Source of the DNA: a phage
Direction: 5' to 3' (one strand)
NCBI GenBank assembly: GCA_024682255.1
Contig: GCA_024682255.1_4716.1
DNA: 64,000 nt
Positions 19,510-64,000 of the stretch are shown one piece after another. The translations under genes and the position numbers were made by a program. Every line of letters starts with the position of its first letter. Position 1 is the stretch's first letter. The notes below the pieces were generated by a model that was not told where the DNA came from, did no database searches, and was given only the letters and a program-made list of their open reading frames with translations.

Positions 19510-20346
19510 TTAACGTGTTCTCCTATCCCGATGCGTATACGACTGAAGACCGATGTCCATATGCGGTAACGTTAGCGTCTGCCAGATCTGTCGTGCGTAG
19601 CGATCAAGCGTATGATCGTCAGTAACACAATCGACGGGTTCGATGAGGTGAGTCGTATACTGGCTTTTCACAGAGAAAGGTTCGTTGTTAGCTGTATCTC
19701 CTAATCCGCTTTTCACCGTGAAGACAAGACGTGTGACTATCATCGCCTTATGTTGCTGTTCATTGTAACGAAGGCTGCGGTATACGGCATAGCTCCCTCC
19801 TTTTAAGCTTCGGGTATAACGAAGGTCGGAGGTCGTCTCGGAAATCTGATACAGCATCCAGTCTAACGTATCTCGCCAGTACACATCATCCACATCAGGA
19901 ACCGTGATACCGTACCGCGTAGGCAGCAATTCTAAAAGCAATTTATAAAGTCCGCGACGTAAGCCATGCTCTTCAGTTTCCGATAAACCGTTTCCAACGT
20001 AACGTGAAATACGCGTACGTAAATACGTACGGATGAACATATTCGCCATCAGTGTTTTCACTCTGCTACTGGTATCCTCAAAGCGATCAACGCTGAAACT
20101 CGTTTCAATCAACCGTCCATTAAAATACAATGCAGCAACATACATCGCATTATTGCTATCTCGTTCAATGTTTAAACGACCGCAGATATTGGCTGCGTCG
20201 TTCATGGTAAATTCTAATTTATCGTGTTCGATACGATAGATAATATCCTCTTGGGTTGCCAGGCTCGCAATGCGACGATAGCCTGGAGAAGTACGTTTTA
20301 CACTCATGATTGTCCTCGTTTTCAATTTTAAGATTGCATGCGGCAT
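19510..20346 (-). CDS. hypothetical protein (278 aa)
   Basis: ORF in minus-strand array. Confidence 0.5.
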   Translation of the reverse strand: MPHAILKLKTRTIMSVKRTSPGYRRIASLATQEDIIYRIEHDKLEFTMNDAANICGRLNIERDSNNAMYVAALYFNGRLIETSFSVDRFEDTSSRVKTLMANMFIRTYLRTRISRYVGNGLSETEEHGLRRGLYKLLLELLPTRYGITVPDVDDVYWRDTLDWMLYQISETTSDLRYTRSLKGGSYAVYRSLRYNEQQHKAMIVTRLVFTVKSGLGDTANNEPFSVKSQYTTHLIEPVDCVTDDHTLDRYARQIWQTLTLPHMDIGLQSYTHRDRRTR

Positions 20347-20389
20347 AAACCCTCCCCGCCTTATGCAGGGAGGGTAGCCATTAAATGGA

Positions 20390-21028
20390 TTAACCTAATT
20401 TACCACCAGCGATGTTGGTGAAATCTTCGCCATCAGGAACTTGCAGTAGAATACGTGCCATGTCCCAGTTGGTTAATGTAATTGCTTTATCATCGATACT
20501 CAGTTCTGGTAGGTCGAGTTCATGATCATCAAACTCGTAAGAAATACTCCATGTTTCATCTGTTTTAGGATCGGTTATCAACACACCGTCTGTTACACGC
20601 ATGTAGTCCGGATGCAGTTCATTACTGAACGTGCTGAACGGATCGGTGTAACATTCAGCATACCCCTCGATCTGCTGACGCTGTGCCTTCGTACGTAATT
20701 CAGGGCACGCCATGATCAGTTGTCGAGATATGCCGTTTGCAGCACGGAAGTCTTCCACGGTGTTACATGGCATGACCACATCGTCATGGAAGATGTTCTC
20801 CGATTGTCTCAACAGCGTCTTACGGAGTTCAGCATAGTTTATCTGATTGAACGCATCGAACGTTGCTAACGATTCAGCGTAAAAATGCTTTACGTGTTCG
20901 CTTGCGCCGCCGAGGCTATTCATCAGCTTGTGGCCGTACTCCATGAAGCTTTTATCGAGACCGGAGGACATTTCTCCGAACCTCAGTGCACGATAACTGT
21001 CTCGTCCACCTGTAAATATTTGCGCCAT
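20390..21028 (-). CDS. hypothetical protein (212 aa)
   Basis: ORF 15 nt downstream of beta-prime exon 3. Confidence 0.5.
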   Translation of the reverse strand: MAQIFTGGRDSYRALRFGEMSSGLDKSFMEYGHKLMNSLGGASEHVKHFYAESLATFDAFNQINYAELRKTLLRQSENIFHDDVVMPCNTVEDFRAANGISRQLIMACPELRTKAQRQQIEGYAECYTDPFSTFSNELHPDYMRVTDGVLITDPKTDETWSISYEFDDHELDLPELSIDDKAITLTNWDMARILLQVPDGEDFTNIAGGKLG

Positions 21029-21043
21029 TACAGGCGTCCTCCT

Positions 21044-21268
21044 TTAGCAATGGTTGTTAGTTGCTTCTATTTCGTCAAGATACGGTTCTACGTCATCGCC
21101 CTCCACGAATTCGTTGAACCAACAGTCAATGGTAGAAATAACCGGTGACTGGTGTTCACATTTCTTAGATACCTTAAAAGGTACGTTATTATCCATCATA
21201 CCGAGTTCGGGTCGAAAACGCCCGAAATGTTTCGCAGTCCAAATGTCTGGGACGATATGGTTGTTCAT
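21044..21268 (-). CDS. RNA polymerase beta-prime N-terminal subunit, exon 3 (MNNHIVP...; 74 codons)
   Basis: MNNHIVPDIW...GMMDNN aligns with the segment immediately after the catalytic DGD in beta-prime (E. coli DGDQMAVHVPL...LMMSTNN; Rpb1 DGDEMNLHVP). Frame is closed by TAG 3 codons upstream of the annotated ATG, so it cannot be contiguous with exon 1. Proposed 3' splice site after G21269; alternative after G21281. Confidence 0.55.
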   Translation of the reverse strand: MNNHIVPDIWTAKHFGRFRPELGMMDNNVPFKVSKKCEHQSPVISTIDCWFNEFVEGDDVEPYLDEIEATNNHC

Positions 21269-21623
21269 CGTGGTGTTCAGCATGAGTCGCTACCTCATAC
21301 CCGCAGCTTTACCTGCAGCTTCCGGTGTTACCGGAATGTCCAGAATACATCTTATCCATATTCCAAATGGAACGTAGGACTTCCGCGCTGGATCTCGCTT
21401 GAGACCACGTATTCGTTGAACGTTCTCCTGAACGGAGCTTCGCTGCTGATCGAACATTGTCACGTACGGTAGGCGTCCCCGAAGGGATTGTCATTGAAGC
21501 CGCGTACATCCGCTACCTTGTTTCTACCTTATCGGTTCCTCTTACGAGGCGTAGCGGCCTTAGCCCTTCCCAGCAATTCACGGAATCCAAGCTCTTCCTT
21601 TCGGAAGGCAGGGCCTATGATTA
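21269..21623 (-). ncRNA. group I intron B (ORF-less, about 355 nt) in beta-prime gene
   Basis: Minus-strand core elements in canonical order: P GAATTGCTGGGAAG (21566-21579), Q GATCAGCAGCGAAGC (21437-21451; P4 TTGCTG/CAGCAG), R GTTCAACGAATACG (21408-21421), S AAGATGTATTCTGG (21340-21353; P7 GAATAC/GTATTC); ends in G. Its 5' guide (P1) pairing was not identified, so boundaries are provisional. Confidence 0.5.
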
Positions 21624-21636
21624 AGCGTCACCGTCG
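21624..21636 (-). CDS. RNA polymerase beta-prime N-terminal subunit, 13-nt mini-exon encoding (F)DGDA
   Basis: Minus-strand cgacggtgacgct lies 8 nt after the HNH stop; first 6 nt CGACGG pair with intron A guide CCGTCG (P10); joined to exon 1 it restores YNADF-DGD; genomic continuation is GCT TAA (stop), so a second splice is required. Confidence 0.5.
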
Positions 21637-23051
21637 CTGTAGTTTAATTTGGTCGAACGTATTCCAATTTCAATCCATGCCAATTACCGCCTTTACTAAT
21701 AGCGGTACTTATCGTAGTCGGATGTACTTTATGTTCTTCAGCAAGGGCGAATCTATCAGGATAGACTTTATGTGTACCATCCTCAAACACCACCTTTACT
21801 GGGAACCTTTGTAATCCACCAGTTTTTGGTCTAGGCTCTTTAGGAATATATTTACACTCGTTCACATCACCAGGATAATTCCTTGTCCACCATGCTTTCC
21901 AACCGTTTCTGGAAAACGTCTTATCTCCATGACATAAGCTATGGCTTAATGTCGCATAACTCACTCCCGCCATTGTTGCCGCCATTACGGTACTTTCCAT
22001 GTGGTACTTGTCTCCATCGGGCGATATTAAAACCAGCCCGCCGTAAATAACATACGACTTACCGACGTCTTCGGATGTGAAACCAACAAATTCCATTCCA
22101 TGGGTAGCCGCATCGTAATACTTCATCAACGGCCATTGTCGTGTTGTACGGAACCATTTTGAAATCTGGGTGTGTGGGATACCGTAACACTTGGCTGCAT
22201 CACGCATGCTGTAATGTTCGGTTATCTCACCAGTTCTCAAATCCTTTATCCATACGGTTTTAGCTTTCCAGTTCAAGCCGGTACGATAGGCATGGTACGT
22301 ATTTTGGGATTGACTTGTCCATTCAAGATTATCCAGGCGGTTGTTATCTTTAACTCCATCAAGATGGTTACCTACTAACATTGATCCCTCAGGAAGCATA
22401 GGTTTTTCACGAAAGGTTGATAGAACAACATGATGAGCTGCTATATCTCTACCTTCATGTCTAACCCTTACATATCCGAATATGTTAGTTTTTCCTACTT
22501 CCTCTCCAGTATAGGCATCTATAATGACACCCTCCTCGGAAGCGGCAAGTCCTGGATAATCTTTACAGTGGTAAAATCCTGGGAATTTTGTCTCTCTAAG
22601 TTTCATCTTCTCTCCGTTATCGGCCAACAGAGAGAAAACGTTCCTCGGAGGCCGACGTTTTCAAATTAAACTATGTTATCGACTATATCTTCATCCTCAT
22701 TGCGAGGAGACTCTCGTTTGGGTTTGTGTTTAACAAAGCCTACTCTACTCAACATCGCGTCTTTCGATAGTCTGTGAGCACACATCTTAACGAATATTCG
22801 TAGATTCCTACAGGCAGGTGAATATTCTTGTTGAGATGCTTCGCTGCGGATTATTCCCGTCCTACCTCTTTTACCATACCCAGGTCATTACGCTGGCCCT
22901 CATCTATGTCACCATGATGAGTTGGTGTGTAGTCCGATTACAGAAACTTCCCGTCAATTAGAGAGTTTTAACTATGCTCCTGTTACCAGGAACCCGACTC
23001 CGACGGCATCAATAAATCAACGTAAGTTATTGATTTAATTGAAGAAATTGG
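21637..23051 (-). mobile_element. group I intron A (about 1.4 kb) carrying an HNH homing endonuclease gene, inserted in the beta-prime NADFDGD codons
   Basis: Minus strand: guide CCGTCG-GAGTCGG (23006-22994) pairs with exon 1 end CCGACTT (P1, U-G at splice site) and exon 2 start CGACGG (P10); P2 hairpin TCCTGGTAACAGGA; P TAATTGACGGGAAG (22947-22960); Q AATCCGCAGC (22843-22852; P4 with bulged A); R GCTCACAGACTAT (22767-22779); S AAGATATAGTC (22681-22691; P7 GACTA/TAGTC); HEG in 3' extension; terminal G at 21637. Confidence 0.8.
21644..22627 (-). CDS. HNH homing endonuclease (intron-encoded)
   Basis: 327-aa ORF; HNH motif HHVVL...VGNHLDGVKDNNRLDNLEW; sits between intron A core and 3' splice site; annotated start is TTG, first ATG 21 nt downstream (MKLRETK...). 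Confidence 0.8.
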   Translation of the reverse strand: MADNGEKMKLRETKFPGFYHCKDYPGLAASEEGVIIDAYTGEEVGKTNIFGYVRVRHEGRDIAAHHVVLSTFREKPMLPEGSMLVGNHLDGVKDNNRLDNLEWTSQSQNTYHAYRTGLNWKAKTVWIKDLRTGEITEHYSMRDAAKCYGIPHTQISKWFRTTRQWPLMKYYDAATHGMEFVGFTSEDVGKSYVIYGGLVLISPDGDKYHMESTVMAATMAGVSYATLSHSLCHGDKTFSRNGWKAWWTRNYPGDVNECKYIPKEPRPKTGGLQRFPVKVVFEDGTHKVYPDRFALAEEHKVHPTTISTAISKGGNWHGLKLEYVRPN

Positions 23052-24307
23052 AAGTCGGCATTGTAGCCTTTCAAGATCATCACGCTTAACCCGATGGTGT
23101 TATCCTGCGGATCGCGTTTAACCTTGGTGATTTCAAGACATTGGTTACTGCTTCGGTCAAGTGATGGGTTTCGAACAAAGCCGCACACAATCCCATCGAA
23201 CGGTGTATCAGCAATAAGCTCATCATGCAGCTCACTCATCATCGGATGATAATTACGGACATGTTCCGCAACGAACGCACGTGCTGCTCTTGGTGAATAA
23301 CCACGATGGAATAACTTGGATTGGATATGTTCTTTATTGGTTAAAGTAAATGGCGCGTATGGGAAATGCAGATGATAATAACGATGGTTCGCTGTTATCG
23401 AACTGATTACGGTACGCGTGGTGAATGGATGTAATGTACCTAATATGTTTTTACGTGTGATACCTTTCTTCTTACCGATGAACTCATCGAAAATAGCTGC
23501 GTGGTATTGCAGCAGCTTCAATTGCACTTTCGCCATCCAGTTTTCTTTCTTTCTGGCGCTCAAAGGTGTTGTTGGATGATAGATGCTATTCAGTGTACCA
23601 ATAGCATCGATCGCACCTTCCATTTTGCTATCCGCATAACGACCGGTTGGCGTATTCTCGATAACGAACATCATGGCTGCAGGAAAGCTGATATACTGAC
23701 TGAAGAACTTATCACGATGGATACGGATGAATTCTCGTAGCGTGTCAACTTTCTCCGTGTTCTTCGGTCCACGTAACGTCGGTCCTTTATACAAGATCTC
23801 CATGATGCGATCGAAGTTCTGTATAAAGCTATTTACGCCGCGACGTATCCCGAATACATCGAATTGCTGCTCCAGATAGTTCTTGAGTTCGATGGGTCGT
23901 TTTACATTTGGACGGTAACTGGCATCAATGAGCCACGTCATCGTTTCAAAGCTTTTGATATTCAACTCGCTTGCCAGCACGAGATGGACCAACGGGTTAA
24001 TGAACGCATCGATTCCTTCAGGAACACGCGCCCACACCGTCGAACGAATCTCTTGTTCTGCTGGGTAGGTTACAACCGTTTTACAGTTCGGACACACCGT
24101 GCCGAGCAGCTCACCACGATTGTAGAAACCGCAACCACATTGTGGTGTGATATCCAACGTATCGCTGGAGTAAACACGGGTGATGAAACTGTTTAATTTC
24201 TTCTTCTCTTCGACGACTTTTGTATCGTAATCATTCAACAAAATCGGCGTAAAAGGAAGTTCTGCGAGCTGTCTATCGAAACTCACGATATCGAGCATGA
24301 TGGCCAT
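23052..24307 (-). CDS. RNA polymerase beta-prime N-terminal subunit, exon 1
   Basis: ATG at 24307 with AGGAGA RBS; Zn finger CGCGFYNRGELLGTVCPNCK (like beta-prime Cys70-88); RNPSLDRSSNQ ~ NRAPTLHRLGIQ; ORF runs ...MILKGYNADF then QFLQLNQ-stop, truncating the universal NADFDGD motif; exon taken to end after the TT of the Phe codon (23052). Confidence 0.75.
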
Positions 24308-24348
24308 GGGGTATCTCCTACAAATGAAAAAGAACGTTAGGACGTATA

Positions 24349-24372
24349 AGGGAGGGAGGTTGCCCTCCCTCC
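24349..24372 (-). terminator. hairpin between chimallin-like gene and beta-prime gene (terminator/attenuator)
   Basis: GGGAGGGAGG ... CCTCCCTCCC stem; T-rich stretch downstream on minus strand. Confidence 0.4.
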
Positions 24373-24399
24373 CGTCAGATTACATCGAACGTTCTTCCA

Positions 24400-26295
24400 T
24401 TAGAACAGGTTGAATGCCCCACCCATGTTGTTAACGCCAACATTCGGACGATCGCTACGTGCGTAGATGTTACCGGAGATGTTACCCAGACCACGAGCAC
24501 GTGCTGCCATGTTACCACGAACAGCGGTACCTGCCAGGTGCTGGATGTTCTCAGGACGGATGGTGAAGCCAGCATCAGCCGCAGCTTCGATCAGCGCCTG
24601 CAGTGCTAACGGATCGAAGTCGTAACGCATTGCCCAGCCGGTTTGTTCCCAGCTACCAGACAGAACACGATCAATGATTTCGTGACGAGCGACAACACGC
24701 TGAGACATCGTCATATCGGTACGGTCGAAGCTGTCTTCCCAAGCTTCTACGGTATCCGGGTTAGTGATGTTCATCATGTACAGATCGTCCATATCACGAA
24801 TATCGTGACGGTGACCATCCTGGTGGTTGTAGTAACCCAGCGGGATACGGTTACCGGTAGCGTAGACCAGCGGTTGGCCGTATTGATATTTCTTGCTGAA
24901 GCAACCCAGGGTAGTATCATCGAATGCACGGAAGAGGGCTTTGTAACCTTCGGAGATTTCTTGAACTTTACCGTCAACGTTGCCCGTATAGATCTTCTCA
25001 GCCGCCGGGATCATACGCAGCAGCCAGCTATACTCGCCTTCTTCCGGTACGTCGATAGAAATCAGCAGAGACGGATACAGAACCTGTTGCAGGAACTTGT
25101 AAATCTGCTCGTTGGTTTGCGTAGACAGATCCAGCGGTGCAGTCACTTCAGGATCCAGCACCATCGCCAGAGCACCTGGGTTATGCGGACCAATACCACG
25201 AGCCGCGTTGCTGATTAAAGACTGTGCCCATGCCATGCCGCTGTTCAGCGTAGCGATGGTACCAATCAGACCCAGCACGAAGCTGTTCGGTGTGAACGCA
25301 TCCAGCTCCAGCGGGTAAACGCTGGTCATCACGTAACGCGGCTGGTATTGTACAGTCGGCGGTACCGGATAGCCGTTAACCAGAACAGGGCCTTGGTTGA
25401 AGGTCGGGTTCTGCGGGCTGTAGGTCAGGTCAATGTAACCGGTGGTGGCGACCAGACGCTGTTGACTATCGTAATCGCTCATCGCTTGACGGATGCGGTT
25501 AGAGATAGTTACAGTGATGTCAGAACGCACAGGGTTACCAACAATATCGCTGTCCTGCATACCGCTGGTGTTGTACTGAACGCTGCTGATTGGCTGATCG
25601 CTTGCCATCATGCCCAGGTTGAACTGCGGCAGACCCAGTTTATCACCGAGACGGATTTCGATCGCGGTTTGGATTGCGTTATCTGCAGCAGACAGCAGGG
25701 TGGTTGCCAGATGCGCAGATTCAGCGGTGATTTCATTGGTCACCACAGCCAGACCAGCGATACGAACAGTACCGTTAGACTTACCGCCAATAGCTGAGTA
25801 CATTGCCGCCATGACTTCGTTGATGAACGTACCGTTCAGGTTATCAACCCAGGTACGCGGTACCAGAATGTTACCATGCGGACCTTGTTCTTCACGACGC
25901 GGCAGCGGAGCCAGACCAGCAACCAGCGGCAGGACGTAACCGAAGAAGTGGTTATGATCACCAACTTTTGCACCGCTCATAACAACCAGGGTCGGATACG
26001 GTACGCTGTACTGGTTCGGGTCAACCGCAACAAAGATGAAGTCGTCTTTGAACTGGGTATCTTCCAGATATTTCTCCATCAGACGACGGAGATTCAGTAC
26101 CTGCTCGGAGCCGGTATTACGGCTGATACGACGGCTCAGTGTACGGTTGATCGTACGCATCGTATGAGTTACTTTAGGACGGTCGGCAAAATCTGCAGCG
26201 GTTTCCAGCGCCTCATCAGCACGTTGTGCGGTGCGGGTTTCAGCTGCACGAATTTCTACATTATCGTTACCGTTATTACGTACGTCTAAGCCCAT
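24400..26295 (-). CDS. abundant early protein; candidate phage-nucleus shell protein (chimallin-like)
   Basis: 631 aa; ATG with AAGAGGA RBS; strongly biased codon usage (CGT/GGT/CTG/AAC) typical of highly expressed genes; TATATTAC early-promoter motif about 72 nt upstream; immediately upstream of beta-prime N gene. Assignment rests on size and context only. Confidence 0.45.
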   Translation of the reverse strand: MGLDVRNNGNDNVEIRAAETRTAQRADEALETAADFADRPKVTHTMRTINRTLSRRISRNTGSEQVLNLRRLMEKYLEDTQFKDDFIFVAVDPNQYSVPYPTLVVMSGAKVGDHNHFFGYVLPLVAGLAPLPRREEQGPHGNILVPRTWVDNLNGTFINEVMAAMYSAIGGKSNGTVRIAGLAVVTNEITAESAHLATTLLSAADNAIQTAIEIRLGDKLGLPQFNLGMMASDQPISSVQYNTSGMQDSDIVGNPVRSDITVTISNRIRQAMSDYDSQQRLVATTGYIDLTYSPQNPTFNQGPVLVNGYPVPPTVQYQPRYVMTSVYPLELDAFTPNSFVLGLIGTIATLNSGMAWAQSLISNAARGIGPHNPGALAMVLDPEVTAPLDLSTQTNEQIYKFLQQVLYPSLLISIDVPEEGEYSWLLRMIPAAEKIYTGNVDGKVQEISEGYKALFRAFDDTTLGCFSKKYQYGQPLVYATGNRIPLGYYNHQDGHRHDIRDMDDLYMMNITNPDTVEAWEDSFDRTDMTMSQRVVARHEIIDRVLSGSWEQTGWAMRYDFDPLALQALIEAAADAGFTIRPENIQHLAGTAVRGNMAARARGLGNISGNIYARSDRPNVGVNNMGGAFNLF

Positions 26296-60618: not shown

Positions 60619-61769
60619 TTATTTAGCGTCGTTAAAGTAAATATCAACAGCTCGTTCCGTTGCGTAGAGGAGACCAAGATTCACAGTCCCAACCACTTCC
60701 GGTGAACCGATGATACGGTTAGCGATACTGGTGCCACTGAAGATAGCATCAAGGGTGTGCCCGTCTTCGGTTTTGTTCACACCATGACCCACGGAAGAGA
60801 CAACGGATTTCGCTTGAGCTGCGAAGGTACCTTTATCACCCATCCCCGCACCAAGGTCGTAACGCATGAAAATACGGATGGCGATCTGGTTCTCGCCTAA
60901 CGGATTACCGTCTATTCTCACGTTACTGTTATTGATACGCCCCGTTGTTGCTTCGTTGAGTTTCAGTTCCTTAACGCGTTTAGCTCGTGCTTTATCCGCT
61001 TCACCGACGAGCGCTGCCATGGTTTCACTCATATCCTCAATCTGAGCGCGGTACAGTACATCGATCTGTACAACTTCACCATGAACGTCAGCACGTGGGT
61101 TATACTGACTCATACGACGTAATGCTTCAACGGCTTCCTGACTCTCATCACTCAGATCGGTTGCAATCGGTTCTTCCAGTGTTGCAAGGATCGTTCGAGG
61201 TTCAACGTGATCGCCGATTTTCACGAGACCGCGAATGTTGAGATGGGCGTCAACGATAAGCGTACGGCTCTTAATCGATGGTGTTACGAGACGATCGGCA
61301 AGATTGTCGAAGATATACGAACTGTCCTCGTGGGTCTCTGGAATATCCAGAATACCGACAAGAGACAGCACGCCTGCGCGCCAAACAACCTGACCTGGGT
61401 TCCACCAGTCGCGTTTAAAATAAAGACGATGGAAAACCACCACATCCTGATCCTTAACGCGATCCCCGACTTTATAATCGGTAATGAGATCGTGAGGATA
61501 ATACTTACCTGGTCCTTTCCCGATTATCGTACCGAGCTGGAAAACCTCTTCCCCTAACTCTGGATCGTCGTACTGTATCGTCAGCGCAGTTTTGGTGACC
61601 TTCTTGACAACACCATCGCCTTGGGCGGCAGCTGCGAAGAGTTTACCAACACGATGCGCGATAACAGTCTCACCGCCGGTGCGCCACGGTTGTACATCGT
61701 AACCTTCAGCAGCAATCATGCGGTTGTGCTGTATACCTATAAATACCAATCTCTTGGGCGAATTTAGTT
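60619..61769 (-). CDS. RNA polymerase beta-like subunit (second beta gene), exon 2 / middle segment
   Basis: VGILDIPETHEDSSYIFDNL ~ E. coli [33 protein letters not shown] ~ SGTVIDVQVFTRD; IAIRIFMRYDLGAGMGDKGTF...SVVS ~ [29 protein letters not shown]. No ATG at ORF start (annotated start is TTG), frame open back to 61770; 5' boundary approximate. Confidence 0.6.
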
Positions 61770-62261
61770 CTTATTCAACATAATCGTACTATTACCAGAA
61801 TAAGACTGAGATTAGATTGTTCAGATAAGGTCGTTGCTTGAAACGATCGTTTCAGCGCTCATCTTATCCCGGAGGCGACGATAGGCACATCACCTCCCGC
61901 TTGCGCTCTCACGCAAGAGCAGACTATATCACATCTCGTTTCAAACGGTGCTTCTTCAGCACCTCAACGAGAGTTCACTTCTTCCCAGCGCATCCAGCGC
62001 CATTCTCTTATCCAAGGAGAATGCCTCACTCGAGGGGTACAGGGGGATGAATCCCTTAGTCGTTGAACCTTTACCTTAGAACGCTTCACAGCGATCCTTA
62101 GGTACTTGGCTGCGGATTGTCCTTAAGCTATTATCTGTTTTTATACCATACCGTCTTTCTTTTCAGAATCCGTTTTGGTCGATAACAGCGATGGATGTCT
62201 TCGCAATTCAGTGAATCTCATCTACATGTCGCCACATAGACGGACCCTGCTATTAAAAGCG
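61770..62261 (-). ncRNA. group I intron C (ORF-less, about 0.5 kb) in beta gene
   Basis: Minus-strand core elements in order: P TGAATTGCGAAGAC (62197-62210), Q AATCCGCAGC (62109-62118), R GTTCAACGACTAAG (62055-62068), S GATATAGTC (61922-61930; P7 GACTA/TAGTC); sits between two beta-homologous ORFs that are consecutive in the beta alignment; exact splice sites not resolved. Confidence 0.6.
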
Positions 62262-64000
62262 TTAATCATCTCTATCAGCAGCAGGTACTGCAAGTGCTGA
62301 TGTACTCATTATTGACGAGCTACCATCCGTTTTCTCGTCGTAGGGTTTCGTTTCACCGTATACAGACACAATGTTTGCGTTAGGTGCAAGGTAAGCAGAG
62401 ATACCTACGTCCCCACTATCCTTCGTACCTTCGGATACAACACCAATGTCCGACTTGTCGTATTCACGATCGCGTGCGCGTCGAAGCGATGTCTTTGAAC
62501 GACCCCCAATACCGGTCATCGTCGCTTCTTCACCCTGCTTGATATCCAGCATCGGGTTGGTTTCATCGATCACGATGGAAGCACTGTCGTCGAGAATTTG
62601 GTTCCAGACACTTACCGGACTGATTGAGATTTTCTGGCGATTTCCTTGACTGCTGTTCTCATTCTGACGAATAGCGCCAACCAGATCCTTATACACCAAT
62701 TCAGCGAACTTATCGTACGTTTTAAAACGTTGGTAGTTCACATCGTTCGTGTTAGGAGCCCAATCATCCAGAAGCAATTCAACAGCACGCAGTAACAACA
62801 TGGCGAAATCGGTAGGTTCTCCCATGTTCTGCAGCAACATACGGCTTACCGGATCAACGAAAAGACGCTCCATGAGTTCAAGTTCGCGTAAATGACGAAC
62901 CTTAAGTCCGGCACCATCGACAACGTTAAAATAGATATCTCGATTGTCAAAAGCGCCGCGAGCGTAACCAATGTAGTTACGGTATTCGTTAAACCCACCC
63001 AGCAACAACGTCGTCATGCGGTCGTCTTTACTGAAGATCAAACTTTCGTCGTCAAAGCTCACCGCGAATTCATCGGGTGCTAGACCCATACGAGAACCGC
63101 GAGGTACCGTACGATAGTTTGCTTTAAGATGTTCTAATAACGGGGTGAGTCCGCCCAGATAACTTAGAACAACACCGACCGGAATACGTACACCCATGAA
63201 TTCAAGATCGGCAGCTTCGATCGGCATCTTGGCCGCATTGATGCCGAAGAAATCAGGGAACGTCCCTACAGGTGTTGGTGTTTGTCCTGACTGACAGATA
63301 TAGAGCTGATTGCGTTTATCGATTGCTAAGAATTCACCCAGCGTGTTACGCGCAAACGTCAGGAGCCCTTCGGCTAACTGTTCGTTGAACCGATCTTCCC
63401 CAATGAACTCCGGTAGCGTTTTTATATCGAGACGTATATCCCAATCAGCAAATTGGATTTGGGTATAATTGCGCGCAAGCACAGCGAAGTAGTACGGAAC
63501 TTTGACAGCTGGATCAAAGACGTTACCACGTTTTAACGTGGTTAAGGGTGAGGACTTATCGTAATACATCGCTGTAAGTTGACGTGTTAGCCAACGACCC
63601 GCATTATTAACGACGCGCTCTGAACGTTTAACAAACACCTTACCGTAGGCGGTACTCAATGCAACTTCGGATGACGATACCTTTCTAATAGGTTTATCAA
63701 CACGTTGTTTACGCATCCGGTATTTGATGCCGTTAACGACATAAATGCCGTCCTTACGAACCTTCGGCAACATCACCGGGAACGTGGTCGGGACACCGCC
63801 TACAGGAGCCAGTTTAATCGTGATGACTTGATAATCCCCCATCACGTCAACGACATCTTCAACTTTATATCCCGTGACAGGGTAACCTGCCTGCTGTACC
63901 GCAACAACGGCAGCTGCGATGTCCTTTTGCATTACGTGTTCGACGTAATGTTTATCCCACACCGCGAGCGTCGATTTACATAAGCTCTTGTCGACGATAA
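62262..64000 (-). CDS. RNA polymerase beta-like subunit (second beta gene), exon 1; 5' end beyond window
   Basis: TGIGGRSKTSLRRARDREYDKSDIGVVSEGTKDSGDVGISAYLAPNANIVSVYGE ~ E. coli beta [52 protein letters not shown]; frame open to window edge (annotated start is GTG). Confidence 0.7.
   Translation of the reverse strand, partial: IVDKSLCKSTLAVWDKHYVEHVMQKDIAAAVVAVQQAGYPVTGYKVEDVVDVMGDYQVITIKLAPVGGVPTTFPVMLPKVRKDGIYVVNGIKYRMRKQRVDKPIRKVSSSEVALSTAYGKVFVKRSERVVNNAGRWLTRQLTAMYYDKSSPLTTLKRGNVFDPAVKVPYYFAVLARNYTQIQFADWDIRLDIKTLPEFIGEDRFNEQLAEGLLTFARNTLGEFLAIDKRNQLYICQSGQTPTPVGTFPDFFGINAAKMPIEAADLEFMGVRIPVGVVLSYLGGLTPLLEHLKANYRTVPRGSRMGLAPDEFAVSFDDESLIFSKDDRMTTLLLGGFNEYRNYIGYARGAFDNRDIYFNVVDGAGLKVRHLRELELMERLFVDPVSRMLLQNMGEPTDFAMLLLRAVELLLDDWAPNTNDVNYQRFKTYDKFAELVYKDLVGAIRQNENSSQGNRQKISISPVSVWNQILDDSASIVIDETNPMLDIKQGEEATMTGIGGRSKTSLRRARDREYDKSDIGVVSEGTKDSGDVGISAYLAPNANIVSVYGETKPYDEKTDGSSSIMSTSALAVPAADRDD

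What the first reader, a model, noticed from the sequence alone, without database searches (positions are those of the whole stretch)
21044..24307. Relatedness of the three introns suggests intron spread among RNAP genes
Introns A, B and C share near-identical core strings: Q AATCCGCAGC in A and C, Q-flank CAGCGAAGC in A and B, and R GTTCAACGA in B and C. This is consistent with a related intron family repeatedly invading conserved RNAP coding sites, A being the only one retaining a homing endonuclease. Further copies may exist elsewhere in the genome.
Basis: seen in the sequence. Interest (0 to 1): 0.6.

Follow-up and report, generated by a model that had tools for sequence, protein, structure and literature searches.

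The report
Tandem self-splicing introns in phage RNAP
In this Goslar-like jumbo phage, two unrelated self-splicing group I introns sit only 13 bases apart inside the codons for the catalytic centre of a viral RNA polymerase subunit, and a third splits another subunit 38 kb away. All three are real and mobile, but the shared "core strings" are the generic group I consensus and do not show that one intron copied itself around the genome.

Summary

- **Intron A:** 23051..21637, carrying an HNH homing endonuclease.
- **Intron B:** 21623..21269, invisible to Rfam in a whole-window scan and unannotated in Goslar.
- **Intron C:** 62264..61759, outside the given coordinates.

A and B split the non-virion RNAP beta' gene. 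A 13-nt micro-exon (CGACGGTGACGCT) between them encodes the DGDA of NADFDGDA. C splits the virion RNAP beta gene after the conserved "DD", the same site as the PhiPA3 gp210 intron.

The three shared strings equal the Rfam RF00028 consensus and also occur in unrelated introns of Bacillus, Enterococcus, Pseudomonas, Serratia and Vibrio phages. A, B and C do not detect each other by nhmmer, and their Smith-Waterman scores are at shuffle level. Each has closer relatives in other phages.

A weaker version of the idea survives. Twelve Goslar-like genomes show six intron configurations at four insertion sites within 26 nt, including a B paralogue 18 nt upstream. Mosaic introns (E, D) link the types. 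Natural intron-less alleles confirm every splice junction. This is a new member of a known kind, with an unusually dense arrangement.

The parts
23052..24307 (-). Exon 1 of the non-virion RNAP beta' N-terminal subunit gene (phiKZ gp55 / 201phi2-1 gp107 family). It ends ...KGYNADF, with the Phe codon split TT|C.
   Evidence: Translation. tblastn gives 100% identity to Goslar and 32-36% to about 290 chimallivirus beta' subunits, including one annotated 'nvRNAP beta' subunit 1'. Intron-less homologues continue NADFDGD....
21637..23051 (-). Intron A, 1415 nt, group I. The ribozyme core is about 23051..22667. It is followed by a homing-endonuclease cassette inserted just before the last nucleotides of the intron. 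The terminal G (omega-G) is at 21637.
   Evidence: Rfam RF00028 scores 54.8 bits over 23041..22660. P1 (exon CCGACUU + C with IGS GGAGUCGG) forms 8/8 pairs in 7 genomes, with compensatory exon/IGS versions. P10 pairs GCCGUC with micro-exon GACGGU. An endonuclease-less 376-nt version exists in L007. The junction is confirmed by the A-less allele in L024.
21644..22606 (-). HNH homing-endonuclease ORF inside intron A: 320 aa from the ATG at 22606, preceded by GGAGAG. The ORF listing reports it from the TTG at 22627. It lies in the loop of a 12-bp stem whose arms are 22673..22662 and 21651..21640.
   Evidence: Pfam HNH_3, E 8.8e-6, above the curated cut-off. It is 29% identical to the Goslar intron ORF and 33.5% identical over its full length to the ORF of intron E in L024. 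The stem arms were read from the sequence.
21624..21636 (-). 13-nt micro-exon CGACGGTGACGCT. It completes the Phe codon and encodes Asp-Gly-Asp-Ala, that is the DGD of the catalytic NADFDGD loop.
   Evidence: Sequence. The spliced product reads ...GYNADFDGDAMNNHIVPD. The same nucleotides are contiguous with both neighbouring exons in natural alleles L024, L019, L020 and L023.
21269..21623 (-). Intron B, 355 nt, group I with no ORF. P7 is GAAUAC/GUAUUC instead of GACUA/UAGUC. Omega-G is at 21269. It is not annotated in the Goslar records.
   Evidence: Consensus fold P1-P9.2 plus the P7 pseudoknot on 5 sequences: 98.5% of cells paired, and 33 of 105 pairs have compensatory changes against 1-2 in slid controls. 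Rfam gives weak full-length hits to its L009 orthologue (28 bits) and to B' (26 bits). B-less alleles show the exact junction GCN|ATG.
21044..21268 (-). Exon 3 of the beta' gene: 74 codons plus stop, starting ATG AAC AAC CAT. The 79-aa ORF 21283..21044 (Goslar gp185, 'hypothetical protein') starts 15 nt too early, inside intron B.
   Evidence: The only four amino-acid differences between the window and L009 in the 79-aa ORF fall within its first 5 codons. Those codons form the P9.2 hairpin, with compensatory changes. The contiguous alleles agree.
61759..62264 (-). Intron C, 506 nt, group I with no ORF. It is inserted after the conserved ...AADRDD of the virion RNAP beta subunit.
   Evidence: Rfam scores 56.3 bits over 62266..61900. 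Goslar gp207 is uninterrupted at exactly this point, and the window is 506 nt longer. The 5' splice site follows a U and the 3' splice site follows a G.
62265..64000 (-). Exon 1 of the virion RNAP beta subunit gene (Goslar gp207, phiKZ gp178 family). It runs off the end of the window.
   Evidence: Translation. The homologous ORF in L018 is 1069 aa up to DRDD. tblastn hits are annotated as virion-associated RNAP beta.
60619..61758 (-). Exon 2 of the virion RNAP beta subunit gene, starting CCC AAG AGA TTG (PKRLVFIGIQHNRM...).
   Evidence: Reading frames and comparison with Goslar, which reads DRDDGKRLVFVGIQHNRM.

Best explanation
The window comes from a Goslar-like nucleus-forming jumbo phage (chimallivirus). 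It holds three independent, functional group I (IA-like) self-splicing introns, all on the minus strand. Each interrupts a multisubunit-RNAP gene at a catalytic motif.

**Layout.** In the non-virion RNAP beta' gene the order is exon 1 (...NADF), intron A (with HNH endonuclease), a 13-nt micro-exon (DGDA), intron B, then exon 3 (MNNHIVPD...). In the virion RNAP beta gene, intron C follows ...DRDD.

**Splicing (inferred from structure).**
- Intron A pairs its guide sequence GCCGUC-G-GAGUCGG with the exon 1 end (P1, with a U.G wobble at U23052) and with the micro-exon (P10).
- Intron B pairs AGGC with the last three micro-exon bases GCU plus its own first U (P1, U.G wobble at U21624). It pairs CAU with the AUG of exon 3 (P10).
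- Both introns end in G.
- The two guide sequences use different parts of the micro-exon, so both introns can be removed independently. The result is a 497-aa beta' subunit with an intact NADFDGD loop.

**Origin.** The three introns belong to different lineages. The shared Q/R strings are the family-wide catalytic-core consensus, not a sign of recent copying.

**Mobility.** The introns are mobile through homing, with the HNH enzymes nicking or cutting intron-less alleles (inferred). They recombine with one another. The NADFDGD-coding segment is therefore a polymorphic insertion hotspot in this phage group.
For: **Identity of the phage.** 97% DNA identity to Goslar.

**Intron identity.** Rfam hits for A and C. 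Covariation-supported full fold for B.

**Splice sites.**
- P1 and P10 complementarity of A, with compensatory exon/IGS changes in 7 genomes.
- Natural alleles lacking B (L019, L020, L023), lacking A and B (L024), or lacking C (Goslar) carry exactly the predicted ligated sequence.
- The spliced ORF is 497 aa and reads NADFDGDAMNNHIVPD. Intron-less homologues are 487-519 aa and read NADFDGDQLN.../NADFDGDALG....

**Lack of specific relatedness.** Smith-Waterman scores at null level. nhmmer self-hits only. The strings are present in unrelated phage introns and in the Rfam consensus.

**Mobility.** Six configurations in 12 genomes. C is absent in Goslar, present without an ORF in L017, and present with a 403-aa HNH ORF in L018. 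The endonuclease ORFs of A are only 29% identical between the window and Goslar, while the ribozyme is 93.6% identical.

Against: - No RNA or protein data: splicing, its order and its efficiency are inferred from sequence alone.
- B falls far below the Rfam gathering score, and its P1 has only 3 exon base pairs.
- I could not define a convincing P1 with a U.G wobble for intron C.
- In L009 the B orthologue has C-G instead of U.G at the 5' splice site.
- The lineage assignments rest on local sequence similarity to about 8 outgroup introns, not on a structure-based phylogeny.
- Deep common ancestry of all phage IA-type introns is not excluded, and for B and C it is hinted at by a shared 3' hairpin.
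Confidence: 0.85

Rival explanations
1. One reading: A, B and C are recent copies of one intron that spread within this genome into several RNAP genes. On this view B and C have since lost their endonuclease genes.
For: The three share 9-10-nt strings. All sit in RNAP genes. A version of C with an endonuclease exists in L018, so loss of an ORF does happen.
Against: Pairwise alignments are at shuffle level and limited to consensus nucleotides. nhmmer finds no cross-hits. The same strings occur in introns of unrelated phages and in the Rfam consensus. The architectures differ: A has no P9 domain, B has a three-hairpin P5 extension and an altered P7, and C has long P7.1/7.2-type and P9 extensions. 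Each has closer relatives in other phages.
Confidence: 0.05
2. A weaker family hypothesis. B and C, together with D, E, B', Serratia 2050HW and Vibrio pir03, descend from one clade of 'chimallivirus RNAP introns' that moves between catalytic sites of beta and beta' genes and recombines. A is an outsider related to DNA-polymerase-gene introns. This is compatible with the best explanation at a deeper time scale.
For: - A shared 3'-terminal hairpin, stem-(A)GUARCGA(A)-stem-UGAAGAY, lies just before the 3' splice site in B, B', E, 2050HW and pir03. D has a variant and C an expanded form. It is absent from A, the PhiPA3 and Temi polymerase introns, SIOphi and EF1.
- Goslar intron D matches B in its 5' half (E 3e-9) and C in its 3' half (E 2e-14).
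- B-type relatives sit at the beta 'DD' site in 2050HW. C-type relatives sit at the beta' NAD|FDGD site in pir03.
Against: B-C similarity itself is not significant. The hairpin motif is short and was found with an ad hoc search on few sequences. The PhiPA3 and Temi polymerase-gene introns also hit B (E 1.7e-5 and 3.9e-4), so the network is not restricted to RNAP genes.
Confidence: 0.4
3. There is only one long intron (23051..21269) or a nested 'twintron'. On this view the B region is a degenerate relic or 3' extension, and the 79-aa ORF is a separate gene as annotated in Goslar.
For: GenBank and RefSeq annotate a single Intron_gpI, a separate 79-aa hypothetical protein, and nothing over B. Rfam misses B in whole-window scans.
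Against: Removing a single intron would delete the essential DGD: TT + ATG... gives a frameshift and a stop. The 13 nt between A and B are coding sequence in the intron-less alleles. B keeps a complete fold with 33 compensatory pairs. B occurs without A (L009), and A-type and B-type introns are independently present or absent. Variation in the first 5 codons of the 79-aa ORF follows RNA pairing, not protein conservation.
Confidence: 0.02

Closest known systems
PhiPA3 gp210 intron in the virion RNAP beta subunit gene (Birkholz et al. 2024, PMC11620839)
   Same: A group I intron in a chimallivirus, inserted immediately after the two conserved aspartates of the beta subunit. This is the same site as intron C (...DRDD|). 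The L018 relative of C carries an HNH ORF, as PhiPA3 does.
   Different: Intron C in this window has no endonuclease ORF. Its ribozyme is closest to a beta'-gene intron of Vibrio phage pir03. I did not fetch or compare the PhiPA3 RNAP-gene intron itself. No competition phenotype has been tested.
Staphylococcus phage Twort orf142 (three group I introns, 23-nt exon, exon skipping) and Coxiella burnetii 23S rRNA (two introns, 34-nt exon), as summarised in PMC10136302
   Same: Tandem self-splicing group I introns flanking a very short exon in a bacterial or phage gene.
   Different: Here the exon is 13 nt, and related genomes have two consecutive 13-nt exons. It encodes the catalytic aspartates of an RNAP. 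The flanking introns A and B are dissimilar, whereas Twort introns 2 and 3 are highly similar. According to the engineering study, dissimilarity should disfavour exon skipping. Splicing has not been tested here.
[quoted passage not shown]
   Same: An HNH_3/NUMOD-type intron endonuclease. The ribozymes are nearly identical (93.6%) between the window and Goslar, while the ORFs share only 29% identity.
   Different: The host gene is an RNAP rather than a DNA polymerase. The ORF sits in a terminal stem immediately before the 3' splice site. Nicking or cutting activity is unknown.
Mini-exons between organellar group I/II introns (as small as 1-3 nt; PMC8971849)
   Same: Coding exons far shorter than an ORF finder can see, flanked by self-splicing introns. 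They cause the same kind of mis-annotation.
   Different: Those are in fungal and animal mitochondria, not a virulent phage, and generally depend on maturases or host factors.
Rfam RF00028 (Intron_gpI)
   Same: A and C reach the gathering score. B, B' and E give full-length sub-threshold matches.
   Different: B scores 16.7 bits in this window. It has P7 GAAUAC/GUAUUC and AUCAGCAGC in place of AAUCCGCAGC.

Membership tests
Group I intron (Rfam RF00028) | Score at or above the curated gathering threshold (50 bits) | tested here: met
   Met for A (54.8 bits) and C (56.3 bits). Not met for B: 16.7 bits when searched locally and absent from whole-window scans. The L009 orthologue of B scores 28 bits full length.
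Group I intron (Rfam RF00028) | Conserved fold P1-P9 with the P3-P7 pseudoknot, supported by covariation | tested here: met
   For B: 20 helices including P7, 98.5% of cells paired, and 33 of 105 pairs with double changes against 1-2 for slid controls. For A: P1 and P10 covary with the exons. For A and C the rest of the fold rests on the Rfam alignment only.
Group I intron (Rfam RF00028) | 5' splice site after a U that forms a U.G wobble in P1; intron ends in G | tested here: inconclusive
   A has U23052.G in an 8-bp P1 and G21637 at its end. B has U21624.G in a 4-5-bp P1 and G21269; its L009 orthologue has C-G instead. C follows a U (62265) and ends in G61759, but I could not identify the G partner or a convincing P1.
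Group I intron (Rfam RF00028) | Precise excision restores the host reading frame | tested here: met
   The spliced beta' is 497 aa with NADFDGDA. Intron-less natural alleles carry the same junction sequences.
Group I intron (Rfam RF00028) | Guanosine-dependent self-splicing | not testable with these tools
   Needs in vitro transcription and splicing, or cDNA from infected cells.
One recently expanded intron family (A, B, C as paralogues) | Pairwise similarity significantly above chance and beyond the universal core consensus; mutual best relatives | tested here: not met
   Smith-Waterman scores are 23, 23 and 25, against a shuffle 95th percentile of 23 and maximum of 26. nhmmer finds no cross-hits at E<=1. 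The nearest relatives are introns of other phages. By contrast, B versus B' scores 202 and is a true paralogue pair.
HNH (HNH_3 / I-HmuI-like) intron homing endonuclease | HNH_3 domain above the Pfam cut-off, ORF located within the intron | tested here: met
   PF13392 scores 25.7 bits against a cut-off of 24.8. The ORF 22606..21644 lies in the loop of a terminal stem of intron A. It has homologues in introns E (L024), C (L018), Goslar A, 2050HW and HPP-Temi.
HNH (HNH_3 / I-HmuI-like) intron homing endonuclease | Site-specific nicking or cleavage of the intron-less allele, and homing | not testable with these tools
   Only indirect evidence: presence/absence polymorphism and lower exon identity next to the C site (88% upstream against 94% downstream and 95.8% overall).
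Multisubunit RNAP beta' subunit (non-virion RNAP, phiKZ gp55 family) | Catalytic NADFDGD loop and homology along the whole length | tested here: met
   tblastn to about 290 chimallivirus beta' subunits. NADFDGD is reconstituted only after removal of both introns.

The most novel reading that the evidence does not exclude
The 26 nt that encode Y-N-A-D-F-D-G-D-A of the non-virion RNAP beta' subunit may be an intron pile-up hotspot in Goslar-like phages.

- It has four distinct insertion sites, used by at least four introns (E, B', A, B).
- Up to three introns are present at once, separated by two 13-nt micro-exons.
- Twelve near-identical genomes show six allelic configurations.
- The endonuclease cassettes are swapped among introns, and the ribozymes are mosaic.

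This could be the densest natural arrangement of self-splicing introns described in a virus. It could also reflect an ongoing contest between homing endonucleases that each destroy their neighbours' target. The outcome might act as interference competition or incompatibility between co-infecting phages, as shown for PhiPA3 gp210. Whether the 'densest' claim and the competition role hold is untested.
Probability: 0.3. Interest if true: 0.7.

Novelty: new member of a known kind. Interest (0 to 1): 0.45.

Why it matters
- **Annotation.** It corrects the gene model of an essential enzyme in a model E. coli jumbo phage. The Goslar beta' subunit is annotated as a truncated protein plus a separate 79-aa 'hypothetical protein'. 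Intron B and the micro-exon are missed, so the annotated protein lacks its catalytic aspartates.
- **Method.** Short conserved group I core strings cannot be used to infer kinship between introns. Rfam-threshold scans can also miss functional introns.
- **Experimental system.** The natural series of alleles (none, one, two or three introns within 26 nt, with or without endonucleases) suits three questions: how tandem ribozymes avoid skipping a 13-nt exon, how homing endonucleases compete for overlapping targets, and whether intron content shapes compatibility between co-infecting nucleus-forming phages.

Tried and rejected
- Whole-window Rfam scans at E<=1 and E<=10 did not report B. It appeared only when its region was searched alone.
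- I first took the ATG at 21283 as the start of exon 3 and tried the junctions DGD|RLMLN, DGDA|RLMLN and DGDA|LMLN. These were rejected once L009 showed that those codons are the P9.2 hairpin and intron-less alleles showed GCN|ATGAAC.
- I considered the in-ORF GATGGAGAC (22018-22010) as the source of DGD. It was rejected because it lies inside the endonuclease ORF and has no intron context.
- A degenerate-pattern scan of viral contigs for a fully intron-less allele found nothing. The metagenome scan by exon 3 protein then supplied such alleles.
- One related-loci run failed because of a frame error. Several regex or register errors in scripts were corrected.
- I did not build a covariance model for B. 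The alignment exceeds 400 columns, and a 355-position model would exceed the calibration limit. I used nhmmer, blastn and an ordered-motif scan instead.
- I could not define P1 of intron C. Candidate pairings are all A-U, or they compete with the P2 hairpin.
- The Twort paper itself (PMC22036) is not held. Its facts are cited through PMC10136302.


Full report
**What the window is.** The region 20300-25000 is 97% identical to Escherichia phage vB_EcoM_Goslar, a nucleus-forming jumbo phage (chimallivirus), but only 78% of it aligns. Genes here run on the minus strand. The RefSeq record annotates, in order:
- the nuclear shell protein;
- an 'RNA polymerase beta subunit' of 424 aa;
- one Intron_gpI;
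- an HNH endonuclease;
- 373 unannotated bases;
- a 79-aa hypothetical protein.

**Checking the observation.**
- AATCCGCAGC lies at 22843-52 and 62109-18.
- CAGCGAAGC lies at 21437-45 and 22838-46.
- GTTCAACGA lies at 21413-21 and 62060-68, plus three further copies in ordinary coding sequence.

Rfam finds two group I introns above threshold, at 23041..22660 (A) and 62266..61900 (C). So the third intron of the finding, C, lies 38 kb outside the stated coordinates. The 'B' region gives only 16.7 bits when searched alone. It is not reported in whole-window scans even at E<=10.

**The beta' gene model.**
- Exon 1 (24307..23052) ends ...KGYNADF.
- Intron-less homologues continue NADFDGDQLNMTLLPD (201phi2-1 gp107) or NADFDGDALGG (Eowyn).
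- The missing DGD is encoded by GAC GGT GAC at 21635..21627. This lies right after the endonuclease stop codon and right before the B core.

For intron A, the internal guide sequence 5'-GCCGUC-G-GAGUCGG pairs with both flanking exons. GGAGUCGG pairs with CCGACUU|C at the end of exon 1, giving a U.G wobble at U23052. GCCGUC pairs with GACGGU at the start of the micro-exon. In seven genomes P1 forms 8 of 8 pairs. Two exon versions (CCGACTTC and CAGATTTC) are matched by two guide versions (GGAGTCGG and GGGATCTG). Intron A is therefore 23051..21637.

**Related genomes settle intron B.** IMG/VR and metagenome contigs supplied eleven further Goslar-like loci. Comparison with L009 showed two things.
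- The only four amino-acid differences in the '79-aa ORF' lie in its first five codons.
- These codons form a hairpin, GUAUGAG...CUCAUGC, which is changed compensatorily to AUACGAA...UUCGUAU.

The true 3' splice site is G21269, and exon 3 starts ATG AAC AAC CAT at 21268. The 5' splice site follows GCU (U21624). P1 is GCU.U/AGGC, and P10 pairs CAU with the AUG.

An alignment of B from four genomes plus its paralogue B' folds into a complete group I structure. This includes P1, P2, P3-P8, a three-hairpin P5 extension, a P7.1/7.2-type hairpin, P9, P9.1 and P9.2, plus the P7 pseudoknot. In that alignment 98.5% of cells are paired. Thirty-three of 105 pairs show changes on both sides, against 1-2 when partners are slid by 1-3 columns.

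The spliced mRNA is 1491 nt and encodes 497 aa with ...GYNADFDGDAMNNHIVPD.... From my own knowledge, this matches the spacing of E. coli NADFDGDQMAVHVP.

**Natural intron-less alleles confirm the junctions.**
- L019, L020 and L023 carry only B'. They read GAC TTT GAC GGY GAC GCR ATG AAC AAC CAT contiguously, which is the B junction.
- L024 carries only intron E. It reads AT AAT GCT GAT TTC GAC GGG GAC GCG ATG AAC contiguously, which gives both the A and B junctions.

Every resolved configuration yields GYNADFDGDAMNNH.

**Intron C.** Goslar gp207 reads ...VPAVDRDDGKRLVFVGIQHNRM without interruption. The window has ...AADRDD, then 506 nt, then PKRLVFIGIQHNRM. This fixes C at 62264..61759, after a U and ending in G. 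The host gene is the virion RNAP beta subunit. The site, immediately after the two conserved aspartates, is the one occupied by the PhiPA3 gp210 intron (PMC11620839) and by the Serratia phage 2050HW intron.

**Are A, B and C related?**
- They occur in introns from Bacillus phage SIOphi, Enterococcus phage EF1, Serratia 2050HW, Pseudomonas PhiPA3 and HPP-Temi, and Vibrio pir03. The PhiPA3 DNA-polymerase intron has all three.
- Local alignment scores are A-B 23, A-C 23 and B-C 25. Shuffles give a mean of 18.6, a 95th percentile of 23 and a maximum of 26. The aligned stretches are just the Q element or Q-to-R.
- As nhmmer queries, A, B and C each find only themselves in the window.

Outgroup introns, by contrast, do find them. 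Values below are Smith-Waterman scores and nhmmer E-values.

| Window intron | Closer relatives elsewhere |
|---|---|
| A | SIOphi 80; HPP-Temi polymerase intron 75, E 5e-14; PhiPA3 polymerase intron 57, E 7e-12 |
| B | 2050HW RNAP-beta intron 55, E 4e-7; Goslar intron D 46, E 6e-7 |
| C | pir03 RNAP-beta' intron 84, E 5e-17; Goslar intron D 54, E 5e-12 |

**What does support 'spread among RNAP genes'.** The 12 genomes show six configurations at the beta' site.

| Configuration | Genomes |
|---|---|
| A (endonuclease w) + B | this window |
| A (endonuclease g) + B | Goslar |
| E + A (no ORF) + B, with two 13-nt micro-exons | L007, L021, L022, L025, L026 |
| B' + B, with an 18-nt micro-exon | L009 |
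| B' only | L019, L020, L023 |
| E with a 323-aa endonuclease, only | L024 |

- The four insertion sites (T|AT of Tyr, GCN| of Ala, TT|C of Phe, GCN|ATG) lie within 26 nt.
- B' is a true paralogue of B: score 202, 72-78% identity.
- E resembles A in its 5' core and B' at its 3' end.
- Goslar intron D resembles B in its 5' half and C in its 3' half. It is outside this window, at GGD|FDGD of the virion RNAP beta' gene, with gp206 as its endonuclease.
- B, B', E, 2050HW and pir03 share a terminal hairpin, stem-(A)GUARCGA(A)-stem-UGAAGAY, just before the 3' splice site. D has a variant and C an expanded form. A and the non-RNAP introns examined lack it.
- At the C site, Goslar has no intron, L017 has C without an ORF, and L018 has C with a 403-aa HNH ORF and a different 5' third.

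Introns are thus mobile and recombining in this phage group. RNAP catalytic motifs are recurrent targets across chimalliviruses. But A, B and C of this window are not copies of one another.

**The endonuclease.**
- The ORF in A (22606..21644) matches Pfam HNH_3.
- It sits in the loop of a 12-bp stem inserted just before the final CAG of the intron.
- Goslar has a different cassette with its own stem at the same place, and L007 has none.
- The two proteins are 29% identical although the ribozymes are 93.6% identical.
- The window enzyme is closest to the L024 intron-E enzyme (33.5%). The L018 intron-C enzyme is closest to the 2050HW enzyme at the same beta site (36%).

**Mechanism: what is shown and what is inferred.**
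- Shown: exact intron boundaries, folds with covariation, and restoration of the reading frame and the catalytic motif.
- Shown: presence/absence polymorphism, HNH domains, and guide-sequence complementarity.
- Inferred: guanosine-initiated self-splicing of A and B independently, each using a different part of the 13-nt exon. A uses nt 2-7 for P10 and B uses nt 11-13 for P1.
- Inferred: homing by HNH-induced breaks.
- Inferred: the dissimilarity of A and B helps to avoid exon skipping. Engineered and natural tandem introns that are similar do skip short exons (PMC10136302). Skipping here would join TT to ATG and give a frameshift.

**Comparison with what is known.**
- Group I introns with HNH endonucleases in conserved phage genes are classical.
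- Introns in chimallivirus RNAP genes are documented for PhiPA3 (PMC11620839; PMC11077065).
- Tandem group I introns around 23-nt (Twort orf142) and 34-nt (Coxiella 23S) exons are known. Mitochondrial mini-exons can be 1-3 nt.
- Two text searches combining 'Goslar' with intron terms returned no paper describing intron B, the micro-exon or the hotspot. Of the jumbo-phage papers they listed, I opened three.

The finding is thus a new member of a known kind with an unusually dense, polymorphic arrangement.

**Verdict.** Interest is moderate at 0.45. The most novel reading not excluded is an intron and homing-endonuclease 'battleground' on the 26 nt coding the RNAP active-site loop.

Noticed in passing
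window 21269-21283 (and Goslar gp185, gp247): The public Goslar annotation splits the non-virion RNAP beta' subunit into a 424-aa protein that reads into intron A and a 79-aa 'hypothetical protein' whose first 5 codons are the P9.2 hairpin of intron B. Intron B and the 13-nt exon are not annotated.
   Followed up: yes
window 21640-22673 vs L008 3580-4646: The endonuclease cassette of intron A has been exchanged. The window and Goslar ORFs are only 29% identical, each enclosed by its own 12-14-bp stem at the same point of a 93.6% identical ribozyme. L007-type genomes have no cassette (376-nt intron).
   Followed up: partly
L016 about 2000-2602 / L005 1229-3230 (Goslar, just beyond the window's right end); L018 about 1000-1200: Goslar's second annotated Intron_gpI (D) interrupts the virion RNAP beta' gene at ...GGD|FDGDTVSV, the paralogous catalytic motif. 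gp206 is probably its endonuclease. L018 has the uninterrupted gene. D is a mosaic: its 5' half is B-like and its 3' half is C-like.
   Followed up: partly
L018 4417-5987: The orthologue of intron C in this genome is about 1.57 kb. It carries a 403-aa HNH ORF near its 5' end, and its first third is unrelated to the window's C. Only the stretch from the Q element to about P9 (window 62124..61863) matches, at 94%.
   Followed up: partly
window 61740-61758 and 62265-62700: Exon sequence next to intron C is more diverged from Goslar than the surroundings. The upstream flank is 88% identical, against 94% downstream and 95.8% overall. Seven of the first 9 exon-2 bases differ, changing Gly to Pro. 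This looks like a co-conversion tract or adaptation to the intron's guide sequence.
   Followed up: no
window 62170-62264: I could not find a convincing P1 with a U.G wobble for intron C. The best candidates are an all-A-U 5-bp helix, or a pairing that competes with the P2 hairpin, whose 3' strand (UAGAUGAG) mimics the exon (UAGAGAUGAU).
   Followed up: partly
window 21286-21292 and 21633-21640: The 3' splice site of A (ACAG|CGAC) is echoed in the loop of B's P9.2 hairpin (GUAG|CGAC). If A's P10 guide used it as a cryptic 3' site, the product would be ...NADF-DSC-stop. I found no evidence that this happens.
   Followed up: no
B 21276-21300; C 61824-61871; L012, L014, L016: A terminal hairpin, stem-(A)GUARCGA(A)-stem-UGAAGAY, a few bases before the 3' splice site is shared by RNAP-gene introns of Goslar-like phages, Serratia 2050HW and Vibrio pir03. 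It is absent from the polymerase-gene and Gram-positive phage introns examined. Its UGAAGAU resembles the J8/7 consensus.
   Followed up: partly
L012 (Vibrio phage vB_pir03) about 420-1720: The pir03 non-virion beta' gene is interrupted at ...GPNAD|...|FDGDMMTGE, the same catalytic loop. The interrupting region is about 1.3 kb and contains several small annotated ORFs and a C-like ribozyme. It may hold more than one intron.
   Followed up: no
L009 4641-4660: The B orthologue of L009 has a C-G pair instead of the usual U.G wobble at its 5' splice site (micro-exon ...GAT GCC|A). It is flanked 18 nt upstream by its own paralogue B'. This situation resembles the exon-skipping Twort introns.
   Followed up: no
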